From: a virus
Lineage: Duplodnaviria; Caudoviricetes
IMG/VR virus record: IMGVR_UViG_3300017917_001798
Location: 1,134 to 65,133 of that record
Strand: one strand, 5' to 3'
DNA: 64,000 bases
Of this stretch, positions 3,918-64,000 are shown piece after piece (position 1 is the stretch's first letter; each line of letters begins with the position of its first letter). Below the pieces are notes generated by a model. It was not told where the DNA came from, made no database searches, and saw nothing but the letters and a program-made list of their open reading frames with translations. The translations under genes were made by a program, and so were the position numbers.

Positions 3918-4548
3918 TGAGTATAAAGAACAATATTTAAATGAAATATACGATACTCCATTAAAATATGATAAAGAATCTAATACAAAATATATAGTAT
4001 ATGATAAAGAAGGAAATGAATTAGCTTATTTTCTTTTTAGATTTATGTATGACCTTGATAAGTCTCCTGTAAATTATAAAAAATATAAATTAGACAGATA
4101 TTGGGATGTAAGTTGGTATTGGGTCGACAACTTACATAAAGAACACAAAAATGCTCAAAATTTTATTAGAGTTACATCAACTGCTTTTAAAATTGTAGAT
4201 GATTTTATAACATCTAGTGGTTTTCCTTTATTATTAGGATTTGGAGGTTTAACAAAACAACATGAAACAATATACTCAGATGATCGTTTTATAGAAAGAT
4301 GGAAAGTACTATTTGGGGAAAGATATAAAATAAAATATCAAAACGATAAATTATGGATTATAAACAAAACAATAACGGTAGATGAAACTAAAATATCAAA
4401 AATAGCGGAAATATATGAATTGTCTAACTCAGAAGCATATAGAAAAGAACTATTTCCAACAAAACGCGACGTTAAAGGTATATCACGTCATGACATGATT
4501 AAAGAACAAATTAAAAGAATTATATTAAAACAATTATATTTTAAATAA
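3874..4548 (+). CDS. Hypothetical protein (accessory insertion)
   Basis: 224-aa ORF with AT-rich codons between endonuclease and tail chaperone. Confidence 0.7.
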   Translation: MKQPSNKEVVKRLYNEYKEQYLNEIYDTPLKYDKESNTKYIVYDKEGNELAYFLFRFMYDLDKSPVNYKKYKLDRYWDVSWYWVDNLHKEHKNAQNFIRVTSTAFKIVDDFITSSGFPLLLGFGGLTKQHETIYSDDRFIERWKVLFGERYKIKYQNDKLWIINKTITVDETKISKIAEIYELSNSEAYRKELFPTKRDVKGISRHDMIKEQIKRIILKQLYFK

Positions 4549-4601
4549 TGTAATATTTATTGACAAATGAATCGAAAAAAATCATTTATATTCTTATCTT
4601 C

Positions 4602-53878: not shown

Positions 53879-56449
53879 ATGGAAAAAATAGTAATTACAG
53901 GAGGTTTAGGTTACATCGGTAGTGAACTATGTAAACTTTATTCTGGTGAAACTAGATTTAAAAACATTGTTGTAGTAGACAACAGGTTTATCTCTGAGCG
54001 TGTTAAACAATTAAGAGATTGGGGTTTTGAATTTATACAAGCCAGCGTTACAGATAAAGATAAAATGAAAGAAATATTAGTAGATGCTGATATTGTACAT
54101 CATTTAGCTGGTATTACAGATGTTGCTTATACTAAATCTGAATCTAATGAAGTAAAAGATCAACAATTAATTACAACAGCTATAGAAGGAACTAATAATA
54201 TTCTGAATTTTACTCCAGCTCATTGTAAAATTATATTCCCATCAACTCACGTTGTATACGAAGGATTTGATGAAGTTAAGTTTGATATTACAGAAGATAC
54301 TCCAACTACTCCTGTACTAGCTTATGCTAAAAGCAAAAACCAAAACGAAATAGATATTAAAGCATCAGGTAAAGATTATGTTATATTGCGTTTATCTTCT
54401 GTTTATGGTTATTCTACAGATACTATGAGGATTGGTATTTTACCTAATTTGTTTTCTAAAATGGCATCTCAAAATGCTACTATTAAATTATTTGCTGGTG
54501 GGGTACAATATAAAAGTTTAATTGGATTAATTGATGTAGTTAGATGTTTCAAATTTATGGCTGAGTCAAGTATTAAAAATGAAACATTCCATTTATCAAA
54601 TGAAAAAACAACTGTAAAAGAAGTAGCCGATTTAGTAAAAAAATATAAATCTGATGTTAATATTGTAAGTACAGATGATGAAATCCCTAACTTGGGATAT
54701 ACTATGTCTAATGTAAAGTTATTAGCAACTGGATTTAAATTTTTAGGTTCTTTAGATGTTAGTATTAAAGAAATGATAGATAATTGGTCTGTTAAAAATA
54801 TTAATCCTGAATTAGAGTATATTTTAAGAGGTGGAAAGGAATATATTGATGATAGAGGTAAAATTAGTAACTATGAATTAACTGAACCTATTAACTTAAT
54901 TGGTTATATTGAATCTAAGAAAGGATCTGTTAGAGCAAATCACTATCATCCAATTCAAGAACAAAAATGTTTACTAATTACAGGTAAATATGTTAGTGTT
55001 ATTAAAGATTTAGCTGATCCTAAAGCAATAACTAAAACACAGATTATTGAACCTGGAGATATTGCTGTGATTAAACCTAATGTTGCTCATACAATGGTGT
55101 TTTTAGAAGATTCAATTTTCTTAAATTTAGTAAGAGGTGAACGTGAACATGATAATTATGGAGTTACACACACTATTCCTTATATTTTAGTAGATGAAGA
55201 ATTTAGAAAAGGTATAATGGAGTGTTATTCTTCTAAAGATAGAAGTGGTGGGGGTGATAATTTAGAACCCGTTATTTCATTAGGTTTATCTCCATTAGCT
55301 AATAATTTATTAGATTCAATGGACGATAAAGACGAATTATTCCCATTAGAAATGATGTATTGCCCAGAAAGTCACAACTGTCAATTATCATATGTAGTTC
55401 CAGCAGGAAAAATGTTTGATCATTATTTGTATGTTTCTTCTACAGCTAAAAGCTTTAGAGATCATTTCGAAGTAGCAGCAGAGAAGTATACTAAAGAATT
55501 TAATTTAGGACCTGGTTCATTAGTAGTTGATATTGGTTCTAATGATGGAATTGCTCTTAAACCACTTAAGGAAAAAGGAGTAATGGTAGTAGGAGTAGAA
55601 CCAGCAAAAAATATAGCTGAATTAGCTAATGCTAATGGAATTAATACTCTCAATAGATATTTTGATAAGAATGCAGTAGATTATATATACAATGAATATG
55701 GGTCAGCAGATGTTATTACTGCATCTAATGTGTTTGCTCATGCTGATAAATTAGATGAAATAGCTAAATTAGCGTTTACGTTACTAAAACCAAATGGTAG
55801 ATTTATTATTGAAGTACAATATCTGTTAGATACAATTAAAGATTTAACATTTGATAATATTTACCATGAACACGTTAATTATTGGAGTGTTATTTCACTT
55901 AGAAATTTCTTTAATCGTTTAGGTTTTGTAGTTGCTAAAGTAGAACATATTAACACACATGGTGGTTCTATTAGAGTTTATATCGGTCACCCTGGAGCTA
56001 GTGTTAATAGTAGCGTTAATGAATTTATTTCGAACGAGTTAGAATTTGGTTTAACAGAATACAAAACATATTTAGATTTTGCTAAACGTGTTGAACAAGC
56101 TAAAACAACAGTAAATAAAAACATTAAAACACTCAAAGATAAAGGTTTAACTTTAGTAGGATACGGTTCACCAGCTAAAGCAACTACATCATTAAATTAT
56201 TACGGTATTACATCTAATGAAATTGAATATATAGTTGAAGATAATCCACTAAAACATAATAAAATTCTACCAGGTGTTAAAATTCCTATCTATGCTAAAG
56301 ATAAATTAAATGAAAAATTACCTGATGTTATAGTTGTTATGGCCTGGAATTTTATTGAAGAAATAAAGAAAAATAATCAAGACTTAATTAATAAAGGAGT
56401 TAAATTTATAAGTATTAAAGAACTACAAAATGATTCATTTAGTTTATAG
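53879..56449 (+). CDS. Three-domain sugar-nucleotide enzyme: NAD epimerase/dehydratase + cupin + sugar C-methyltransferase
   Basis: TGGLGYIG, Y...K; RANHYH...AH cupin; LG.SPLAN, DIGSNDG, IYHEH, HGGS.R, GYG..AK. Confidence 0.88.
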   Translation: MEKIVITGGLGYIGSELCKLYSGETRFKNIVVVDNRFISERVKQLRDWGFEFIQASVTDKDKMKEILVDADIVHHLAGITDVAYTKSESNEVKDQQLITTAIEGTNNILNFTPAHCKIIFPSTHVVYEGFDEVKFDITEDTPTTPVLAYAKSKNQNEIDIKASGKDYVILRLSSVYGYSTDTMRIGILPNLFSKMASQNATIKLFAGGVQYKSLIGLIDVVRCFKFMAESSIKNETFHLSNEKTTVKEVADLVKKYKSDVNIVSTDDEIPNLGYTMSNVKLLATGFKFLGSLDVSIKEMIDNWSVKNINPELEYILRGGKEYIDDRGKISNYELTEPINLIGYIESKKGSVRANHYHPIQEQKCLLITGKYVSVIKDLADPKAITKTQIIEPGDIAVIKPNVAHTMVFLEDSIFLNLVRGEREHDNYGVTHTIPYILVDEEFRKGIMECYSSKDRSGGGDNLEPVISLGLSPLANNLLDSMDDKDELFPLEMMYCPESHNCQLSYVVPAGKMFDHYLYVSSTAKSFRDHFEVAAEKYTKEFNLGPGSLVVDIGSNDGIALKPLKEKGVMVVGVEPAKNIAELANANGINTLNRYFDKNAVDYIYNEYGSADVITASNVFAHADKLDEIAKLAFTLLKPNGRFIIEVQYLLDTIKDLTFDNIYHEHVNYWSVISLRNFFNRLGFVVAKVEHINTHGGSIRVYIGHPGASVNSSVNEFISNELEFGLTEYKTYLDFAKRVEQAKTTVNKNIKTLKDKGLTLVGYGSPAKATTSLNYYGITSNEIEYIVEDNPLKHNKILPGVKIPIYAKDKLNEKLPDVIVVMAWNFIEEIKKNNQDLINKGVKFISIKELQNDSFSL

Positions 56450-59554: not shown

Positions 59555-60160
59555 ATGGCTCCTCCCTCAAAAACATATAGTAGGGATGACATTCTTAGAG
59601 CTATGCGCTTTACAAAATCAAATAGAGCAGCGGCCAAATATTTAGGATGTTCATACCAGCATTACAAACCTTATGCTAAATTATATAGGTTAGACGAAAA
59701 TGATCATACCTCCCCTACGTTATTTGAAGTCCATAAAAATCAAAGCGGTAAGGGTATTCCCAAGTTTTTACCTAACAGACGTAGAGAACCTAATGTTAAA
59801 AATATAATAGAAACAGGAACGGGTTGGGAATCATTCTCACCTGAAAAAATAAAATCAAGACTAATTGCTGAAAGTTACCTAAAAGAAGAATGTTATGCGT
59901 GTGGTTTTTGTGAACGTAGAGTAACTGATTATAAAATACCATTATTATTAAATTTTAAAGATGGTAATAAAAATAATTATTTATTAGACAATCTTGAATT
60001 ATTATGTTATAATGATTATTTTCTGTTAGTTGCTGATCCACTAACACCTGATCAAGTACGCCACATTGAAGACAACCAGGGCGTTAAGGCTGTACAACAT
60101 CATTGGGATGTAGATGAAAGGGAATATTTAGACAATATGAGAGCTTTAGGTATTCTGTAA
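59555..60160 (+). CDS. HTH + degenerate HNH-like protein
   Basis: AAA.YLG.SY..YK; C..CG...LNFKDGN..N..L.NLELLCYND (catalytic His absent). Confidence 0.65.
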   Translation: MAPPSKTYSRDDILRAMRFTKSNRAAAKYLGCSYQHYKPYAKLYRLDENDHTSPTLFEVHKNQSGKGIPKFLPNRRREPNVKNIIETGTGWESFSPEKIKSRLIAESYLKEECYACGFCERRVTDYKIPLLLNFKDGNKNNYLLDNLELLCYNDYFLLVADPLTPDQVRHIEDNQGVKAVQHHWDVDEREYLDNMRALGIL

Positions 60161-60171
60161 TATTTATATAT

Positions 60172-61269
60172 ATGCGAATATTTTTAAGTGAAATTATAGA
60201 TGAAATTTTAGGTGTTCCTGAAGGATTATTAGATATATCTGAAGAAGTCTACAGGGGCATTGTAAGTAATTTAGAAGGAGATACAACAAATGTCACTTTA
60301 ATTCCTAAACGAATGAATATAAATGGCAATTTTAATATATCTGACTATAAGTTCAATACAGTTGAAGTAGAAATTAATGCTAATCTTAATTCTGATTATG
60401 ATATAGAATGGTTATCTATGGGTGTTTCTGGTGAAATGTCTACAACTAAACCATATAAAAGATTAAGTTATGTAAAAAATAATAAAGTATATTTAATAAT
60501 AAATTTAGTTTGTGGTTATGATAAAAAATGGAATGATGTGGCTGATTTCTTTAAAGGAAATAAAAAGAAAGAATTAATTTCTAGTATAGCCCATGAATTT
60601 AAACATAGTTACGATAATTATAAAAAAGGTTCTGATAAAGCTTCATCAATATTTAAATATGTGAGAGTATCTAGTGGGAATATTGGTTTACCTCAATTAG
60701 ATAAATTTACATTTTATATATACTATACAGACGCAATAGAAAATTTAGTTAGACCTGCAGAAGTAGCATCTTATTTAAGAAATAGCAATGTAACTAAAGC
60801 AAATTTTTTGGATATTTTGAAAGAAACTAATGTATATAAAAATTTAAAAGAAGCTCAAAATATAAGTTATGATGGTATGGTAAAAGAAATAATTAATGAT
60901 TCTAGAACGGTACCATCAATAAAAAATTTCTTTGAAAAGAAAGGAGAAAACACAGACAATCTATCAGACGAGGAAATAGTTAAAAAATTTTTACAATATC
61001 ACTTTAAACACTATAAATCAGCTTTAAAGGCAGATTATGCAAACCAAGTAATGAGATCAAATATAGCTGGTAATTTATTTTCATTTTTAAAGGTTCCCGG
61101 ACGTGAAATAGATTATAATAAGAAAAAAGCTATAGAAGATTTTAATAGAGAAGTAGAAAGATTTAGTGATAGTGATTTTGAAAAATTTTATAAATACGAA
61201 GAAAAGAAAATACATTTTGAGGCAAATAGAGCTTTAAAAAAAGTGGCAAAACTTTATGCTTATATTTAA
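60172..61269 (+). CDS. HExxH-containing protein with MRIFLSEIIDE N-terminus
   Basis: IAHEFKH...E motif; late motif at 60160. Confidence 0.7.
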   Translation: MRIFLSEIIDEILGVPEGLLDISEEVYRGIVSNLEGDTTNVTLIPKRMNINGNFNISDYKFNTVEVEINANLNSDYDIEWLSMGVSGEMSTTKPYKRLSYVKNNKVYLIINLVCGYDKKWNDVADFFKGNKKKELISSIAHEFKHSYDNYKKGSDKASSIFKYVRVSSGNIGLPQLDKFTFYIYYTDAIENLVRPAEVASYLRNSNVTKANFLDILKETNVYKNLKEAQNISYDGMVKEIINDSRTVPSIKNFFEKKGENTDNLSDEEIVKKFLQYHFKHYKSALKADYANQVMRSNIAGNLFSFLKVPGREIDYNKKKAIEDFNREVERFSDSDFEKFYKYEEKKIHFEANRALKKVAKLYAYI

Positions 61270-61472
61270 TATTATGCAAATAAATAAAGACATATTAGAC
61301 AATAATAAAGAAAATCTTGAAATAAATTTCAATTCAGAAACTAGTAAACATATTAGGAAACTATTAAATAGAATCTTTATAATTAAAAAACCTAAGTCTA
61401 AGAAAAGTTGTAAATAAATTTGATTCGGTCAAAGTTCTTTTGTATATTTAGTTTACAAATAAAATAAAAAAT

Positions 61473-61766
61473 ATGAGTTTTGAATTAGCACAAAAATTTG
61501 CAGATTACCAACTTCCTGATGCAGTTAAAGAAGCATTTAAAAAAGGATTACCAATGATTGGTTCATTGAATTTCACTAAAATGATGTTATTCGCCAATGA
61601 GGTTCAATTAACAAACGATAACATTGATTATTACATGAATATACCTCCTCGTAGAATGGAAGGTGAAACTAAAGAAGAAATGAAACTTAGAGGTAAATTT
61701 GCAAACGCTTTATACAAATATAGAGCTTATCTATACGATTATTCAGTATTTGAAAAACAAAATTAA
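61473..61766 (+). CDS. Hypothetical protein
   Basis: P.R.EGET.EE.K.R; behind promoter 61420-61450. Confidence 0.7.
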   Translation: MSFELAQKFADYQLPDAVKEAFKKGLPMIGSLNFTKMMLFANEVQLTNDNIDYYMNIPPRRMEGETKEEMKLRGKFANALYKYRAYLYDYSVFEKQN

Positions 61767-61780
61767 TAAAATTAATAATT

Positions 61781-61996
61781 ATGGGACAATATTTCCAAGT
61801 AAAAGTTCAGTTTAAATCTGAAGAAGGTAAAAAAACAAGTGTAAATTATTTAGTAGACGCTCAATCAGTAACTGAAGCTGAAGCAAGAACAGTAAAGTTT
61901 TTAGTAGATAACGATGAACAGTCTTTTGAAGTTAAAGCAGCATCCGCGTCGAACATAGTTCAAGTAATACTAGAATCAGAACCAGAGTCAGAATAA
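61781..61996 (+). CDS. DUF4494-like protein
   Basis: YLVDA.S.TEAEAR motif typical of Bacteroidota DUF4494. Confidence 0.75.
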   Translation: MGQYFQVKVQFKSEEGKKTSVNYLVDAQSVTEAEARTVKFLVDNDEQSFEVKAASASNIVQVILESEPESE

Positions 61997-62078
61997 TTTG
62001 GTTCGGGCAAAATAAAGTCGTATATTTACTTTATAAAAAATGCAGGGAATTAAAATTTACATATATTTATAGACGCAA

Positions 62079-62201
62079 ATGAAAAATCAATACCAACATA
62101 TTAGCAAATTTAACAGTCGCTCGCAAGCAGCGATTTGGCAAGTGGTATGCTTTAAAAACAAACCGCAAACAACAGGGCTAAAAGATATTGATTTAGGATA
62201 A
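62079..62201 (+). CDS. Putative attenuator leader peptide 1 (40 aa)
   Basis: MKNQYQHISKFNSRSQAAIWQVVCFKNKPQTTGLKDIDLG*, directly after ATATTTAT; contains CAGGGCT complementary to terminator 5' arm. Confidence 0.7.
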   Translation: MKNQYQHISKFNSRSQAAIWQVVCFKNKPQTTGLKDIDLG

Positions 62202-62224
62202 TAAATATAATCAAATATAAATTT

Positions 62225-62255
62225 AAGCCCTGATCTAAAAAATCAGGGCTTTTTT
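62225..62255 (+). terminator. Intrinsic terminator directly upstream of tRNA array (attenuator 1)
   Basis: AAGCCCTGAT-CTAAAAA-ATCAGGGCTT followed by T run; 3 nt before tRNA-Phe. Confidence 0.9.
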
Positions 62256-62258
62256 AAT

Positions 62259-62331
62259 GGTGCTCAAGCTAACTTGGTAGAAGCGGAAGACTGAAAATCT
62301 TCAGGACTCGGGTCGGAACCGAGGTGCACCA
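62259..62331 (+). tRNA. tRNA-Phe(GAA)
   Basis: Cloverleaf; anticodon arm GAAGA-CTGAAAA-TCTTC; atypical T loop GTCGGAA. Confidence 0.85.
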
Positions 62332-62332
62332 C

Positions 62333-62488
62333 ATGACAAAAAAACAAATAACCGATCAGATAAATGCTATTAGAAAAGTAGTAGCAGAGATTGGAAACGA
62401 TAAAAATAAAGCAAACCAATTCTTGTTAGATGCAGGAATTATAAAAAAGAAAAAATATGTACATACCAACAGATTTAGCAGTAATTGA
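62333..62488 (+). CDS. Small ORF within tRNA array (51 aa)
   Basis: MTKKQITDQINAIRKVV...FLLDAGII...*. Confidence 0.45.
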   Translation: MTKKQITDQINAIRKVVAEIGNDKNKANQFLLDAGIIKKKKYVHTNRFSSN

Positions 62489-62596
62489 TGTTTATTATAA
62501 AAAAGGTCATCCCTTTTTGAGATGTCTAAAATATAAACGTATTATGCGAAAACGAAAACAGAAGTAAACTTCCTCTTGAGTGAGAGGGAGTAATAA

Positions 62597-62670
62597 TCCC
62601 TTGTAGCTCAATTGGCTAGAGTAACCGGCTTTTACCCGGTGGGTTGTAGGTTCGAATCCTACCGGGGGAA
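62597..62670 (+). tRNA. tRNA-Lys(UUU)
   Basis: ACCGG-CTTTTAC-CCGGT; GTAGG-TTCGAAT-CCTAC. Confidence 0.95.
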
Positions 62671-62682
62671 CAAAAGTAAAAT

Positions 62683-62753
62683 ACAGGTGTGGTGAAACGG
62701 TATCATTCTGGTCTCCAAAACCATCGTTCGAGGTTCGAATCCTCGCATCTGTG
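62683..62753 (+). tRNA. tRNA-Trp(CCA)
   Basis: Loop CTCCAAA; CGAGG-TTCGAAT-CCTCG. Confidence 0.92.
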
Positions 62754-62767
62754 CAGAACGCTCTTAT

Positions 62768-62840
62768 AGTTCCTTAGCTCAGAGGCAGCAGCGCTTGGCT
62801 TACATCCAAGAGGACGAGATTTCAAAATTCTCAGGAACTA
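62768..62840 (+). tRNA. tRNA-Val(UAC)
   Basis: AGTTCCT/AGGAACT; CTTGG-CTTACAT-CCAAG. Confidence 0.88.
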
Positions 62841-62847
62841 CATATAT

Positions 62848-62919
62848 TGTCCTCTGGTGTAACGGTCAGCACAAGTGGTTTTGGTCCACTTAGTCGGGGT
62901 TCGAATCCCTGGAGGACAT
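62848..62919 (+). tRNA. tRNA-Gln(UUG)
   Basis: TGTCCTC/GAGGACA; AGTGG-TTTTGGT-CCACT. Confidence 0.95.
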
Positions 62920-62925
62920 CAATAA

Positions 62926-63011
62926 GGAAGGTTGGCAGAGTTGGTCGATTGCACTAGTCTTGAAAACTAGAAGCTGTAACAGGTTCATGAGTTCGAATCT
63001 CATACCTTCCT
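62926..63011 (+). tRNA. tRNA-Ser(UGA)
   Basis: CTAGT-CTTGAAA-ACTAG; long variable arm. Confidence 0.95.
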
Positions 63012-63017
63012 CAGTAT

Positions 63018-63089
63018 GGTGTTTGAAGCATTAAGGTGATGCACTGGTTTGTGAAGCCAGGGAAGACGGTTCGATACCGTCCTTATACC
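63018..63089 (+). tRNA. tRNA-His(GUG)
   Basis: CTGGT-TTGTGAA-GCCAG; G-1 and C73; U-U mismatches in acceptor stem. Confidence 0.85.
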
Positions 63090-63090
63090 C

Positions 63091-63198
63091 AAAAGATTTA
63101 TCTTAGGCGGTGAAACCGTGTGATGGTCGATGAATGAAAGTAATGCACTTATGACCGTGGCCCGTTAGGGGATAAAATATTCATCTGATAAATCTTTT
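63091..63198 (+). ncRNA. Unidentified structured RNA between tRNA-His and tRNA-Ser
   Basis: 12-bp closing stem AAAAGATTTATC/GATAAATCTTTT with internal hairpins and potential pseudoknot. Confidence 0.65.
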
Positions 63199-63203
63199 AA
63201 TTT

Positions 63204-63289
63204 GGAGAGTAAAACGATAAGGTTGTCGTCACCGCCTGCTAAGCGTGTGGTACCCTAAAAAGGTATTTGCTTCGATGCAATGCTCTCCG
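63204..63289 (+). tRNA. tRNA-Ser(GCU)
   Basis: GGAGAGT/GCTCTCC; loop CTGCTAA; long variable arm. Confidence 0.85.
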
Positions 63290-63291
63290 CA

Positions 63292-63347
63292 GACCCAGTA
63301 CGACGCACATCTTGGCCCGAGTGTGATGGAAAGCTGGTATCGGGCCC
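63292..63347 (+). ncRNA. Small GC-rich pseudoknot-capable element between tRNA-Ser and tRNA-Ile
   Basis: CCAGT/GCTGG, CGCAC/GTGTG, GGCCCGA/TCGGGCC pairings. Confidence 0.45.
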
Positions 63348-63350
63348 TAT

Positions 63351-63423
63351 GCTTATGTAACTCAATGGTGAGAGTACCGACCTGATACGTCGGAGGTTAC
63401 AAGTTCGAGTCTTGTCATAAGCA
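63351..63423 (+). tRNA. tRNA-Ile(GAU)
   Basis: CCGAC-CTGATAC-GTCGG; GCTTATG/CATAAGC. Confidence 0.95.
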
Positions 63424-63483
63424 CTTTTATGGTTTTTGATATCTTTATATATTTATAGACACAAAACAATAATAAAACATTCA

Positions 63484-63564
63484 ATGCAACTAACGTATAC
63501 ATACAATACCTTGATAAGCCTAAATTTAGGTGAGGGAAGAGATATGGATACCTCAGGAGCATAA
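63484..63564 (+). CDS. Putative attenuator leader peptide 2 (26 aa)
   Basis: MQLTYTYNTLISLNLGEGRDMDTSGA*, after ATATTTATAGAC; ends in TCAGGAGC complementary to terminator 5' arm. Confidence 0.7.
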   Translation: MQLTYTYNTLISLNLGEGRDMDTSGA

Positions 63565-63592
63565 TGAAAAATAAAATATTATTTTAAAATTT

Positions 63593-63628
63593 AAGCTCCT
63601 GAAATAAAAAATCAGGAGCTTTTGTTTT
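63593..63628 (+). terminator. Intrinsic terminator upstream of second tRNA group (attenuator 2)
   Basis: AAGCTCCTGA-AATAAAAAA-TCAGGAGCTT followed by TTGTTTT. Confidence 0.88.
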
Positions 63629-63668
63629 GGGCAAAATAAAATCGTACATTTAATGTATACGAGAATAA

Positions 63669-63740
63669 GGGTTGGTAGCTCAGAGGCAGAGCGGTTGTTT
63701 GTTAAACAACGGGTCAGGATTTCGAAATTCCTCCTTCCCT
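63669..63740 (+). tRNA. tRNA-Asn(GUU)
   Basis: GTTGT-TTGTTAA-ACAAC; U-U mismatches in acceptor stem. Confidence 0.87.
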
Positions 63741-63748
63741 CATAACAA

Positions 63749-63828
63749 GCCGACGTCGCATAGTGGCAATTGCTCGTGACTGTAAATCACGTCCTTCGGG
63801 TTCAGAGGTTCGAGTCCTCTCGGCGGCA
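63749..63828 (+). tRNA. tRNA-Tyr(GUA)
   Basis: CGTGA-CTGTAAA-TCACG; variable arm CCTTCGGG; AGAGG-TTCGAGT-CCTCT. Confidence 0.95.
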
Positions 63829-64000
63829 CAGAAAAAATAAGTTGATTGGGCAAAGTAAAAATTGTATCTTCAATTTATAAAAGAATAAAAAGATCTTTGA
63901 AATGGTTAATATGATGGGGAAGAAGTTTAATAAACTCGCTGTTTAAAATATTCTTCGGTAACGATAGTCAATCTAACAGTTACATCGGTAAAACATCTAA

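What the first reader, a model, noticed from the sequence alone, without database searches (positions are those of the whole stretch)
62061..63423. Candidate tRNA-sensing translational attenuator controlling a phage tRNA array (module 1)
Seen: promoter motif ATATATTTATAGAC (62061), then an unannotated 40-codon ORF (62079-62201), then a strong terminator (62225-62255), then nine tRNAs starting 3 nt later. Codons 32-34 of the ORF contain CAGGGCT (62173-62179), a copy of the terminator 3' arm. It can pair with the 5' arm AGCCCTG (62226-62232), extended by ATATTGATT/AATCAAATAT pairing, to give a mutually exclusive antiterminator. Each of the nine downstream tRNAs (Phe, Lys, Trp, Val, Gln, Ser-UGA, His, Ser-GCU, Ile-GAU) has a cognate codon within the first 25 leader codons, including rare TGG, CAT, TCG and GTG. 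Twenty of codons 2-30 are read by these tRNAs, while the common residues L, T, G, E, D are absent there. Established: this is the geometry of trp/his-type attenuators. Inference: a ribosome that finishes the leader masks the antiterminator (tRNAs off); stalling on any depleted or nuclease-cleaved tRNA frees it (tRNAs on). This would be a multiplexed sensor supplying backup tRNAs against host tRNA-destroying defences. I know of no description of this for phage tRNA arrays.
Basis: partly seen in the sequence, partly recalled or inferred. Interest (0 to 1): 0.96.

Follow-up and report, generated by a model that had tools for sequence, protein, structure and literature searches.

The report
Leader-peptide switch gating phage tRNA genes
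A tiny translated gene wired to a stop/go RNA switch sits in front of this lake phage's tRNA genes and is written mostly in the amino acids those tRNAs carry, so the phage probably makes more tRNA when ribosomes decode slowly, a control I could not find described in print for tRNA genes.

Summary
The box (62061), the 40-codon ORF (62079-62201), the arm copy CAGGGCT (62173), the terminator (62225-62251 plus T-run) and tRNA-Phe (62259) are all there. Eight of the nine tRNAs are called by tools. The ninth (Ser-GCU) is only a syntenic, cloverleaf-folding candidate.

Comparative data support the attenuator reading. At least 12 other uncultured freshwater phage contigs carry the same cassette in front of tRNA-Phe. 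The stop codon lies 21-28 nt before the terminator. The arm copy, 5' arm and 3' arm change together. In 14 of 14 cassettes the nascent RNA folds as antiterminator. Only 2.4% of 543 other terminator-like hairpins have such an upstream partner.

In relatives the array holds 21-24 tRNAs for all 20 amino acids, and 26 of 33 leaders contain all 20 (null about 1.6%). The window's leader is a diverged member (19 kinds, no Glu). It is enriched for its own block's amino acids (20 of 29, P about 0.002).

An unrelated phage (G053) has three blocks, each with a leader matching only its own block.

Nothing shows expression. The sensing of tRNA supply and the anti-defence role are inferred.

This scan reported the same design earlier on other DNA. 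I found no published account.

The parts
62005..62031 (+). First of three copies of a promoter-like motif (GGGCAAArTAAA .. TAyATTTA), called 'P2' here. The other copies start at 63629 and 63848.
   Evidence: Direct-repeat family D1; positions. A similar motif lies upstream of the box in L288, L290/L291 and L295 and after the terminator in L278. Promoter function is inferred only.
62061..62074 (+). Box ATATATTTATAGAC: a phage promoter-type motif 4 nt before the leader's ATG, implying a leaderless or near-leaderless mRNA.
   Evidence: Two exact copies in the window. In 47 relatives' records, 39 matches with up to 1 mismatch against 25 for the reversed control, all on each record's gene strand. 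Most lie just after a hairpin plus T-run and 0-30 nt before an ATG of ordinary genes. The box also precedes the leader in L288, L291, L295, L284, L282 and L278.
62079..62201 (+). Leader ORF 1: 40 codons, 19 kinds of amino acid (no Glu).
   Evidence: The C-terminal 15 residues align to the family profile (hhalign probability 82%). The position is the same as the 39-48 codon leaders of relatives.
62173..62179 (+). Segment 2: a copy of the terminator's 3' arm inside codons 32-34. It pairs with the terminator's 5' arm to form the antiterminator.
   Evidence: I10. RNAduplex gives -13.8 kcal/mol against -8.7 +/- 2.0 in 300 shuffles, P 0.017. It forms in the nascent-RNA fold, -14.7 kcal/mol.
62185..62218 (+). 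Inner hairpin of the antiterminator (ATATTGATT / AATCAAATAT). It encloses the leader's stop codon (62199-62201).
62225..62257 (+). Intrinsic terminator: arms 62225-62234 and 62242-62251, 7-nt loop, then a T-run.
   Evidence: Hairpin alone -14.4 kcal/mol. Across 13 cassettes 98.1% of cells pair and 6 of 8 pairs show compensatory change; 0 of 500 shuffles reach this.
62259..62331 (+). tRNA-Phe(GAA), the first gene behind the switch. There is no room for a promoter in between.
   Evidence: Rfam 42.4 bits. ARAGORN misses it. The same tRNA follows the terminator by 3-12 nt in relatives.
62333..62567 (+). Two overlapping short ORFs (62333-62488 and 62457-62567). The last 8 codons (62544-62567, MRKRKQK) match a mini-ORF kept in relatives between tRNA-Phe and tRNA-Lys. 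A hairpin follows at 62572-62587.
   Evidence: Variant contigs replace 62447-62566 by 28 letters that carry the mini-ORF (tables 5 and 5c).
62597..63090 (+). tRNA-Lys(UUU), Trp(CCA), Val(UAC), Gln(UUG), Ser(UGA), His(GUG).
63204..63289 (+). Probable divergent tRNA-Ser(GCU).
   Evidence: Not called by ARAGORN or Rfam. Cloverleaf fold and synteny with Ser(gct) of L295 and L302.
63351..63424 (+). tRNA-Ile(GAU), the last tRNA of block 1.
   Evidence: 73.6 bits.
63447..63628 (+). Cassette 2: box 63447-63460; leader ORF 2 at 63484-63564 (26 codons); segment 2 TCAGGAGC at 63553-63560, abutting the stop codon; terminator arms 63593-63602 and 63612-63621. A P2 motif (63629), tRNA-Asn (63669) and tRNA-Tyr (63749) follow.
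   Evidence: (I24, I7). Duplex -14.8 kcal/mol, reached by 0 of 300 shuffles. Nascent fold is the antiterminator.

Best explanation
Region 62061-62257 is a ribosome-mediated (leader-peptide) transcription attenuator that gates read-through from phage promoters into the tRNA block that starts at 62259.

Proposed working:
- Transcription starts at or near the box, and probably also at the P2-like motif upstream.
- The 40-codon leader is translated at once.
- As RNA polymerase makes the terminator's 5' arm, segment 2 (62173-62179) can pair with it and, with an inner hairpin, form an antiterminator. Transcription then runs on into the tRNA genes.
- A ribosome that keeps pace with the polymerase unwinds segment 2 and the inner hairpin on its way to the stop codon (62199). 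The 5' arm is then free to pair with the 3' arm, and transcription ends 3 nt before tRNA-Phe.
- Slow decoding of any leader codon, for want of charged or intact tRNA, therefore raises tRNA synthesis. This is a negative feedback on decoding capacity.

The leader samples the amino acids served by the tRNAs behind it: all 20 in relatives with complete arrays, and mainly the block-1 kinds in this window, where a second cassette heads the next block.

Shown: the sequence parts, their conservation, the joint changes of the three segments, the fold preference, and the composition statistics.

Inferred: promoter use, translation, coupling, stalling as the signal, and the benefit (supply for late genes or backup against tRNA-cleaving defences).
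For: Conservation. A 21-base stretch of the window's tRNA-Phe found 16 viral loci. 11 have the cassette directly upstream. 1 (L278) has it before a promoter-like motif and tRNA-Cys. 4 do not. A peptide-motif scan confirmed 15 of 24 stretches and added L293, L296/297 and L298/299.

Geometry. In 14 of 14 cassettes the stop codon lies 21-28 nt before the terminator, and segment 2 ends 0-18 nt before the stop.

Pairing.
- Segment 2 against the 5' arm beats 300 dinucleotide shuffles at P <= 0.04 in 13 of 14 cassettes.
- The nascent RNA folds as antiterminator in 14 of 14, and in 7 of 14 this is even the full-length optimum.
- Of 543 other terminator-like hairpins in all fetched DNA, 2.4% reach -12 kcal/mol, against 14 of 14 family cases.
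- The three segments change together: GCCCTGG, GTCCTGG (L301), CTCCTGG (L284, cassette 2), GCCCCG (L299), GCCTC with shifted register (L297).
- Terminator: 6 of 8 pairs compensatory.
- The segment 2 nucleotides are kept although the reading frame over them differs (Pro-Gly against Asn-Gln-Asp).

Translation. Mean pN/pS is 0.57 over 36 pairs.

Composition.
- 26 of 33 distinct leaders hold all 20 amino acids and 7 hold 19. The null P(20) is 1.6% at 45 residues.
- The divergent L278 (40 aa) and L282 (39 aa) still hold 20.
- Arrays behind the leaders carry 21-24 tRNAs for all 20 amino acids.
- The leader is absent from 7 of 7 near-complete relatives, which have 1-9 tRNAs.
- Window leader 1 against block-1 kinds: 20 of 29, P 0.0017. 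Leader 2 against the distal kinds inferred from relatives: 20 of 25, P 0.002.

Independent phage G053. It has three blocks, each with a leader, antiterminator and terminator. Own-block matches are P 0.026, 0.0018 and 1.7e-5; all off-diagonal values are P >= 0.5. L273 is a further case at P 0.034.

Precedent. In the whiB7 uORF attenuator the uORF's amino-acid content decides which starvations are sensed (PMC10274678, abstract and section 7 read).
Against: - There are no expression data of any kind.
- The closest relatives by polymerase (G001, G005) put a tRNA 6-8 nt after the upstream gene's stop, with no cassette. The cassette may travel with the big array as one unit, so its conservation could partly be shared descent.
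- The window's leader lacks Glu. By the differences listed, a close variant strain also loses its only Tyr.
- 9 of 29 codons (N, Y, R, A, C, P) have no tRNA in block 1.
- In cassette 2 and in L278 a promoter-like motif follows the terminator, so those tRNAs may not depend on the switch.
- On an unsupervised alignment the antiterminator's covariation is weak: 84.5% paired with 44 of 500 shuffles as high, and double changes 3 cells with 16 of 500 as high. Three informative rows are misaligned there.
- Main-family peptides keep more positions than composition alone demands (11 invariant columns in 7 sequences), which leaves room for a function of the peptide itself.
- In the window, segment 2 ends 18 nt before the stop, so a ribosome resting on the stop codon would not cover its core. 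Masking would have to happen in transit.
- The composition tests are post hoc, and the distal set for leader 2 is inferred from relatives because the record ends at 64000. Against the two tRNAs actually seen (Asn, Tyr) it is 4 of 25, P 0.33.
Confidence: 0.6

Rival explanations
1. The switch is real and translation-coupled, but it reads general translation capacity or transcription-translation coupling (ribosome availability, host shut-off, infection stage), not the supply of particular tRNAs. The leader's broad composition is then incidental or only makes it an 'average' message.
For: The default state without a ribosome is read-through, so any loss of coupling opens it. Main-family leaders are not enriched for any one kind (composition). 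Tandem promoter-like motifs suggest stage-dependent input.
Against: Block-specific composition holds in G053 (3 of 3 on the diagonal, none off it), in the window's leader 1 and in L273. A generic coupling sensor does not predict this. Nor does it predict that all 20 kinds are kept in shortened or diverged leaders.
Confidence: 0.18
2. The ORF encodes a small protein with a job of its own, with its own promoter and a leaky terminator. The tRNAs are made by leak-through or from other promoters. The upstream arm copy tunes mRNA 3'-end formation or stability.
For: The peptide is under purifying selection (pN/pS 0.57), with 11 invariant positions in 7 sequences. Promoter-like motifs follow the terminator in cassette 2 and L278.
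Against: The N-terminal 25 residues of the window's leader and of L278 are not recognisably related to the family, yet the ORF, its length class, its end point, segment 2 and the terminator are kept. In 12 cases tRNA-Phe starts 3-12 nt after the T-run with no room for a promoter, so read-through is needed. No Pfam or PHROG family was found for neighbouring small ORFs, and none of the 26 HMM hits is longer than 81 aa apart from one unrelated repeat protein.
Confidence: 0.12
3. The conserved peptide (W-Q-x-E-R .. L-G-Y-C-F) is an arrest peptide. It stalls the ribosome in response to a small molecule or factor, as TnaC or SpeFL do (recalled from memory), and so opens the switch.
For: The positional conservation of the core motif in the main family.
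Against: The motif is absent from the window's leader, from L278, and from the three G053 leaders, which have the same RNA design.
Confidence: 0.04
4. The terminated approximately 180-nt transcript is the product: a small RNA acting in trans. The ORF and the arm copy are by-products.
For: Discrete promoter-to-terminator units occur twice in the window. Attenuator-derived small RNAs are known (rnTrpL, PMC6614838, abstract seen in a search listing).
Against: Substitution patterns fit coding sequence: synonymous changes are in excess in divergent pairs. The ORF's end point relative to the terminator is fixed within 8 nt in 14 of 14 cassettes.
Confidence: 0.04

Closest known systems
Leader-peptide transcription attenuators of enterobacterial amino-acid operons (trpL, hisL, pheL, and the multivalent thrL and ilvL); textbook knowledge, recalled
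   Same: A short translated leader whose 3' part overlaps one strand of an antiterminator that competes with an intrinsic terminator. Ribosome position decides between the two. The leader is enriched in codons tied to the product of the controlled genes.
   Different: The controlled genes are tRNA genes, not biosynthetic enzymes. There is no run of one regulatory codon but single codons of many or all kinds. No protector (1:2) hairpin was found, so no translation means read-through. The setting is a phage and the mRNA is probably leaderless.
whiB7 (wblC) uORF attenuator of mycobacteria (PMC10274678; abstract and section 7 read)
   Same: A uORF with a broad amino-acid repertoire (the M. smegmatis uORF has every kind except Cys) coupled to an antiterminator and terminator. 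Depletion of many amino acids, tRNAs or synthetases opens it. The uORF's content sets what is sensed. A tRNA-cleaving toxin (VapC5) is reported to trigger resistance pathways (PMC10287673; only the title and the start of the abstract were seen in a listing, which do not name whiB7).
   Different: The output there is a transcription factor of a stress regulon in Actinobacteria, and the uORF is Ala-enriched and variable. Here the output is the tRNAs themselves, which closes a direct feedback loop. No sequence relationship was tested or is expected.
Stress-induced long tRNA array (trn operon) of Anabaena PCC 7120 (PMC8421152, passages read; TrcR repressor, PMC10272220, listing and start of abstract)
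   Same: An extra, array-encoded tRNA set that is switched on when translation is impaired.
   Different: Control there is at the promoter, through direct repeats and a repressor. The words 'attenuat', 'leader' and 'terminator' do not occur in that paper's main text.
T-box riboswitches (recalled)
   Same: Antiterminator/terminator choice that reports on tRNA status.
   Different: T-boxes bind uncharged tRNA directly, have no ORF, and control synthetase or amino-acid genes. No T-box match appeared in the Rfam scan of 60000-64000.

Membership tests
Leader-peptide (ribosome-mediated) transcription attenuators | A short ORF upstream of the controlled genes that is translated | tested here: inconclusive
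   The ORF is present and kept in position in 12 or more contigs, with pN/pS 0.57. Translation itself cannot be shown with these tools, and no RNA run was listed.
Leader-peptide (ribosome-mediated) transcription attenuators | An intrinsic terminator between the leader and the controlled genes | tested here: met
   (98.1% paired, 6 of 8 pairs compensatory).
Leader-peptide (ribosome-mediated) transcription attenuators | A mutually exclusive antiterminator, one strand of which lies in or next to the leader's 3' end | tested here: met
   The formal covariation on an unsupervised alignment is weak.
Leader-peptide (ribosome-mediated) transcription attenuators | Leader codons enriched for the amino acids tied to the controlled genes | tested here: met
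   20 of 29, P 0.0017. All 20 kinds in 26 of 33 relatives whose arrays are complete. G053 diagonal.
Leader-peptide (ribosome-mediated) transcription attenuators | A protector/pause hairpin (segments 1:2) that gives termination when the leader is not translated (trp type) | tested here: not met
   In the fold of 62075-62262, segment 2 has no upstream partner. Nascent folds go straight to the antiterminator.
Leader-peptide (ribosome-mediated) transcription attenuators | Read-through responds to ribosome stalling | not testable with these tools
   Needs reporter assays, Term-seq or Ribo-seq.
All-20-amino-acid leader family of freshwater phage tRNA arrays (defined here; also reported by earlier notes of this scan) | Homology and synteny: box, ORF, segment 2, terminator, tRNA-Phe | tested here: met
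   C-terminal 15 residues align to the profile, probability 82%. The 3' 30 nt of the ORF are near-identical to L300.
All-20-amino-acid leader family of freshwater phage tRNA arrays (defined here; also reported by earlier notes of this scan) | The leader holds all 20 amino acids | tested here: not met
   The window's leader has 19 (no Glu) and only 17 in its first 33 codons.
whiB7/wblC uORF attenuator | Controls a WhiB7-type regulator in Actinobacteria | tested here: not met
   The downstream genes are tRNAs.
Rfam Thr_leader (RF00506) and T-box | Match at the family's gathering score | tested here: not met
   Thr_leader scores 23.6 bits against a gathering score of 55, E 0.27, over the terminator region only. 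No T-box hit.

The most novel reading that the evidence does not exclude
Phages gate each block of their tRNA genes with a programmable 'codon-sampling' leader peptide: a multiplexed sensor whose amino-acid content evolves to match the tRNAs behind it. It holds all 20 kinds for complete arrays and subsets for split arrays, as in this window and in G053. Loss of any one tRNA species, by starvation, codon demand of late genes, or host anticodon nucleases, then switches on exactly the block that replaces it.
Probability: 0.5. Interest if true: 0.92.

Novelty: new variant of a known kind. Interest (0 to 1): 0.85.

Why it matters
How phages regulate their own tRNA genes is largely unknown, and tRNA genes in general are thought to be controlled at promoters.

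A leader-peptide attenuator in front of tRNA genes would be a direct feedback from decoding speed to tRNA supply. It would be the first use of this classic mechanism for tRNA genes that I could find.

A leader that samples many or all amino acids would show that one attenuator can multiplex up to 20 inputs.

It also gives a concrete, testable link between phage tRNA arrays and host defences or stresses that deplete tRNAs. The short, self-contained part might serve as a sensor of decoding capacity.

Tried and rejected
- Relatives by the 365-aa upstream protein. A single-protein scan of viral contigs found none. The phage collection had no match for it or for the 71-aa protein. Its family (19 proteins; 80 of 227 viral loci kept; 80 of 441 metagenome loci kept) is only 25-43% identical. 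70 of the 80 viral loci had no tRNA by ARAGORN, and none of the loci led to the cassette. The metagenome loci were not scanned for tRNAs. This route was dropped.
- A box-to-terminator DNA pattern found nothing in viral contigs.
- blastn of 61700-64000 against phage records hit only tRNA genes of unrelated phages.
- The DNA polymerase route gave close relatives, but most lack the cassette.
- No homologue of leader 2 was found, so the block-2 claim rests on one sequence.
- No RNA holder was listed among the sequencing runs.
- Laid contigs gave only strain variation.
- The Thr_leader hit is far below threshold.
- My first terminator structure string was two columns out of register. It was corrected.
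- The automatic survey of terminator-to-tRNA junctions (18 junctions, 16 with a short ORF) splits complete arrays at gaps and misses tRNA-Phe. I use it only for L273 and G053, not as a rate.
- The column-shuffle test of completeness (11 of 12 against 3.84 +/- 1.39, 0 of 20000) is confounded by relatedness and alignment. I give it little weight.
- A codon-to-anticodon test was not run. From the anticodons listed I judged that the phage tRNAs read nearly every sense codon, so it would have no power.
- Supplements of the papers were not opened. Those of PMC10274678 list the uORFs of many species and may bear on how often uORFs hold nearly all amino acids.


Full report
WHAT THE WINDOW IS. The window is nearly all of a 65,133-base IMG/VR virus record that CheckV rates 39% complete. 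All large ORFs lie on the + strand. They include a tail sheath, a family-B DNA polymerase, a DnaB-like helicase, a ribonucleotide reductase and a chaperonin, so this is a large tailed phage. Relatives with 87-90% identical polymerase have complete genomes of 173-183 kb. Pond and lake metagenome runs hold parts of the stretch, and a close variant strain was laid from two of them. The host was not determined.

THE OBSERVATION.
- Seven tRNAs of the block are called by ARAGORN. tRNA-Phe is called only by Rfam, at 42.4 bits.
- The claimed Ser-GCU (63204-63289) is called by neither tool. It folds as a cloverleaf and is the positional homologue, with shared flanks, of tRNAs that ARAGORN calls Ser(gct) in two relatives.
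- The block is not a tight array. Two short ORFs separate Phe from Lys, and a 108-nt element closed by 12 perfect base pairs (63091-63198) follows His.
- The codon counts are right: 20 of codons 2-30 belong to the block's amino acids, against a background of 0.39, empirical P 0.0017.

A SECOND COPY OF THE DESIGN. At 63447-63628 there is an exact copy of the box, a 26-codon ORF, TCAGGAGC abutting its stop codon, and a terminator whose arms are AAGCTCCTGA / TCAGGAGCTT. The arm copy has changed together with both arms relative to cassette 1. Here a promoter-like motif (GGGCAAAATAAA...), which also occurs at 62005 and 63848, follows the terminator and precedes tRNA-Asn and tRNA-Tyr.

RELATIVES.
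- The nearest genomes by polymerase (G001, G005) keep the two upstream genes at about 70-73% DNA identity. They place a tRNA 6-8 nt after the stop codon, with no box, leader or terminator.
- The box itself recurs on the gene strand of relatives (39 matches against 25 for the reversed control in 47 records). It usually lies right after a terminator and 0-30 nt before the ATG of ordinary genes. I read it as a phage promoter class that gives leaderless or short-leader mRNAs. This is an inference.
- One exact box in G018 led to a homologous cassette.
- A 21-base stretch of tRNA-Phe then found 16 viral loci, and a peptide-motif scan found 15.
- Taken together, 12 loci besides the window were analysed, 11 with distinct leaders.

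CONSTANT GEOMETRY AND A CONSERVED SWITCH.
- In 14 of 14 cassettes the stop codon lies 21-28 nt before the terminator, and the best partner of the terminator's 5' arm lies inside the last codons of the ORF, ending 0-18 nt before the stop.
- That pairing beats 300 dinucleotide shuffles at P <= 0.04 in 13 of 14 (L278: 0.083).
- Folded without the 3' arm, all 14 nascent RNAs form the antiterminator, -13 to -24 kcal/mol. In 7 it remains the optimum even with the 3' arm present.
- Among 543 other terminator-like hairpins in everything I had fetched, the median of the same measure is -5.5 kcal/mol and 2.4% reach -12. The 14 family cases are all at -12.4 or better.
- The three segments change together in several lineages.
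- On an unsupervised MAFFT alignment the terminator is 98.1% paired with 6 of 8 pairs compensatory, reached by 0 of 500 shuffles.
- The antiterminator on the same alignment is 84.5% paired with two compensatory pairs, but is not clearly above shuffles. The three most informative rows are misaligned there.
- The segment 2 nucleotides are kept even where the frame over them differs. That points to selection on the RNA.

THE ORF LOOKS TRANSLATED.
- Among nine main-family leaders, non-synonymous differences run at about half the synonymous rate: mean pN/pS 0.57 over 36 pairs, with dN/dS 0.15-0.4 in the more divergent pairs.
- The peptide is not uniformly conserved. Only the last 15 residues of the window's leader align to the family profile, and L278 is as divergent.
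- What persists in all is an ATG just after the box, a 39-48 codon frame, and its end point inside the antiterminator.

COMPOSITION.
- The arrays behind the cassette hold 21-24 tRNAs in a conserved order (Phe Lys Trp Arg Cys Pro Ala Val Gly Gln Ser His Ile Asn Tyr Glu Asp Met Met Thr Gly Arg Leu) and cover all 20 amino acids (with Phe).
- The leaders do the same. An HMM search of 1.84 billion representatives gave 26 hits. I dropped one unrelated 173-aa repeat protein and one N-truncated entry, and trimmed one mis-started entry. Adding 9 leaders read from loci gave 33 distinct leaders. 26 hold all 20 amino acids and 7 hold 19.
- Random stretches of these phages' proteins do so in 1.6% of trials at 45 residues and 0.5-0.6% at 39-40.
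- 22 of 33 already have 19 or more kinds in the first 33 codons (null 1.0%).
- L282 lost the Glu-Arg-Arg stretch yet has Glu, Arg and Ala elsewhere. L278 has Trp, Tyr and Phe at other places. On the other hand, three leaders that lost the usual Glu did not regain one.
- The leader occurs in 6 of 52 records searched and in 0 of 7 near-complete relatives, which carry only 1-9 tRNAs.

THE WINDOW'S OWN LEADERS.
- Leader 1 has 19 kinds (no Glu). Its codons ahead of segment 2 are drawn mostly from the kinds served by block 1.
- Leader 2 (MQLTYTYNTLISLNLGEGRDMDTSGA) is drawn 20 of 25 from Asn, Tyr, Glu, Asp, Met, Thr, Gly, Arg and Leu. These are the kinds that follow Ile in relatives' arrays (P 0.002). 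Each leader is depleted in the other's set.
- This fits a split of one complete array into two separately gated blocks. But the record ends 170 bases after tRNA-Tyr, so the distal set is inferred. Against Asn and Tyr alone the match is not significant.
- A close variant strain changes leader 1 at N3T, Y5N, F11V, N12S and N27S, with one silent change. It changes leader 2 at T9N, L10W, I11L, S12N and L13I, with three silent changes. None of the listed differences falls in either segment 2 (173 further differences were not shown).

AN INDEPENDENT TEST. One of the tRNA-Phe loci without the cassette (L285) belongs to a different 125-kb phage (G053). Its tRNA region has three blocks, each headed by a short ORF whose 3' part pairs with the 5' arm of a terminator 25-30 nt downstream of the stop.
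- Leader A goes with Lys, Arg, Arg, Gly, Glu, Met, Ile, Val: 15 of 24, P 0.026.
- Leader B goes with Leu, Leu, Ser, Tyr: 12 of 26, P 0.0018.
- Leader C goes with Pro, Asp, Asn, Asp, Thr, Phe, Gln, His, Trp: 20 of 27, P 1.7e-5.
- The six off-diagonal comparisons all give P >= 0.5, and every tRNA kind of a block occurs in its own leader.
- L273 gives a fourth, weaker case (10 of 24, P 0.034).

HOW IT MOST LIKELY WORKS. See Best explanation. First, with no ribosome the RNA goes to the antiterminator, so the resting state is ON, and termination needs a ribosome that keeps up with the polymerase. Second, in the window the core of segment 2 lies 20 nt before the stop codon, so it is unwound in transit rather than covered by a ribosome resting on the stop codon. 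The resting ribosome would instead hold open the inner hairpin.

WHAT IS KNOWN. Four full-text searches found no account of attenuation or leader peptides in front of tRNA genes, in phage or cell.
- The nearest published system in logic is the whiB7 uORF attenuator. There the uORF's amino-acid content sets which starvations are sensed, and the M. smegmatis uORF holds every kind but Cys (PMC10274678, abstract and section 7).
- The nearest in purpose is the stress-induced tRNA array of Anabaena, which is controlled at its promoter (PMC8421152, passages).
- Earlier notes of this scan report the same design on other DNA, including all-20 leaders in T4-like freshwater phages and multi-cassette phages. 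I reached the all-20 finding before reading them. I took from them the leads to the two papers.

VERDICT. The sequence features are real, conserved and non-random. An antiterminator/terminator switch overlapped by a translated leader is well supported. That it senses the supply of the tRNAs it controls is the best reading of the composition data, but it is untested.

Noticed in passing
L293 and L294 5503-5916; L297 5313-5811; L299 5182-5676; L295 10345-10770; L302 (reverse strand) 1980-2508: A GOLLD RNA (236 bits) lies directly upstream of the leader cassette in two relatives. A tmRNA gene lies directly upstream in two others, and within or after the array in two more. The cassette thus opens a large island of structured RNA genes.
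   Followed up: no
window 62544-62587: A mini-ORF (MRKRKQK in the window; MKRK... of 4-11 codons in relatives) followed by a G+C-rich hairpin lies between tRNA-Phe and tRNA-Lys in nearly all relatives. In the window it is fused to a longer 36-codon frame. Variant contigs replace 62447-62566 by 28 letters that carry the short form. It could be a second, Lys/Arg-rich leader or an RNA motif.
   Followed up: partly
window 63091-63198: A 108-nt element closed by 12 perfect base pairs lies between tRNA-His and the Ser-GCU candidate. In variant contigs it is replaced by 128 other letters. Earlier notes of this scan describe such stem-closed RNAs between phage tRNAs.
   Followed up: no
window 62005, 63629, 63848: Three copies of a promoter-like motif (GGGCAAArTAAA followed by TAyATTTA-like). 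One lies before box 1, one after terminator 2, and one after tRNA-Tyr. A similar motif also lies upstream of the two genes preceding the array in relatives G001 and G005.
   Followed up: partly
L302 (reverse strand) 4136-4576: A 146-aa Cys-rich HNH-type endonuclease gene sits inside a relative's tRNA array behind the same box motif. This recalls homing endonucleases in the T4 tRNA region (recalled).
   Followed up: no
window 60172-61269: The 365-aa protein upstream belongs to a large family of freshwater phage proteins with an invariant H-E-x-x-H .. D motif. 227 viral and 441 metagenome stretches were confirmed. No Pfam or PHROG name applies beyond a weak tape-measure hit. It may be a metallopeptidase.
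   Followed up: no
window 53879-56449: An 856-aa multi-domain protein with PHROG matches to a nucleotide-sugar epimerase, a tRNA methyltransferase and a cupin-type dioxygenase lies a few kb upstream of the tRNA region.
   Followed up: no
L038, L039, L047: Distant phages that carry the 365-aa family also carry a tRNA with anticodon CTA (reported by ARAGORN as Pyl), a possible amber suppressor.
   Followed up: no
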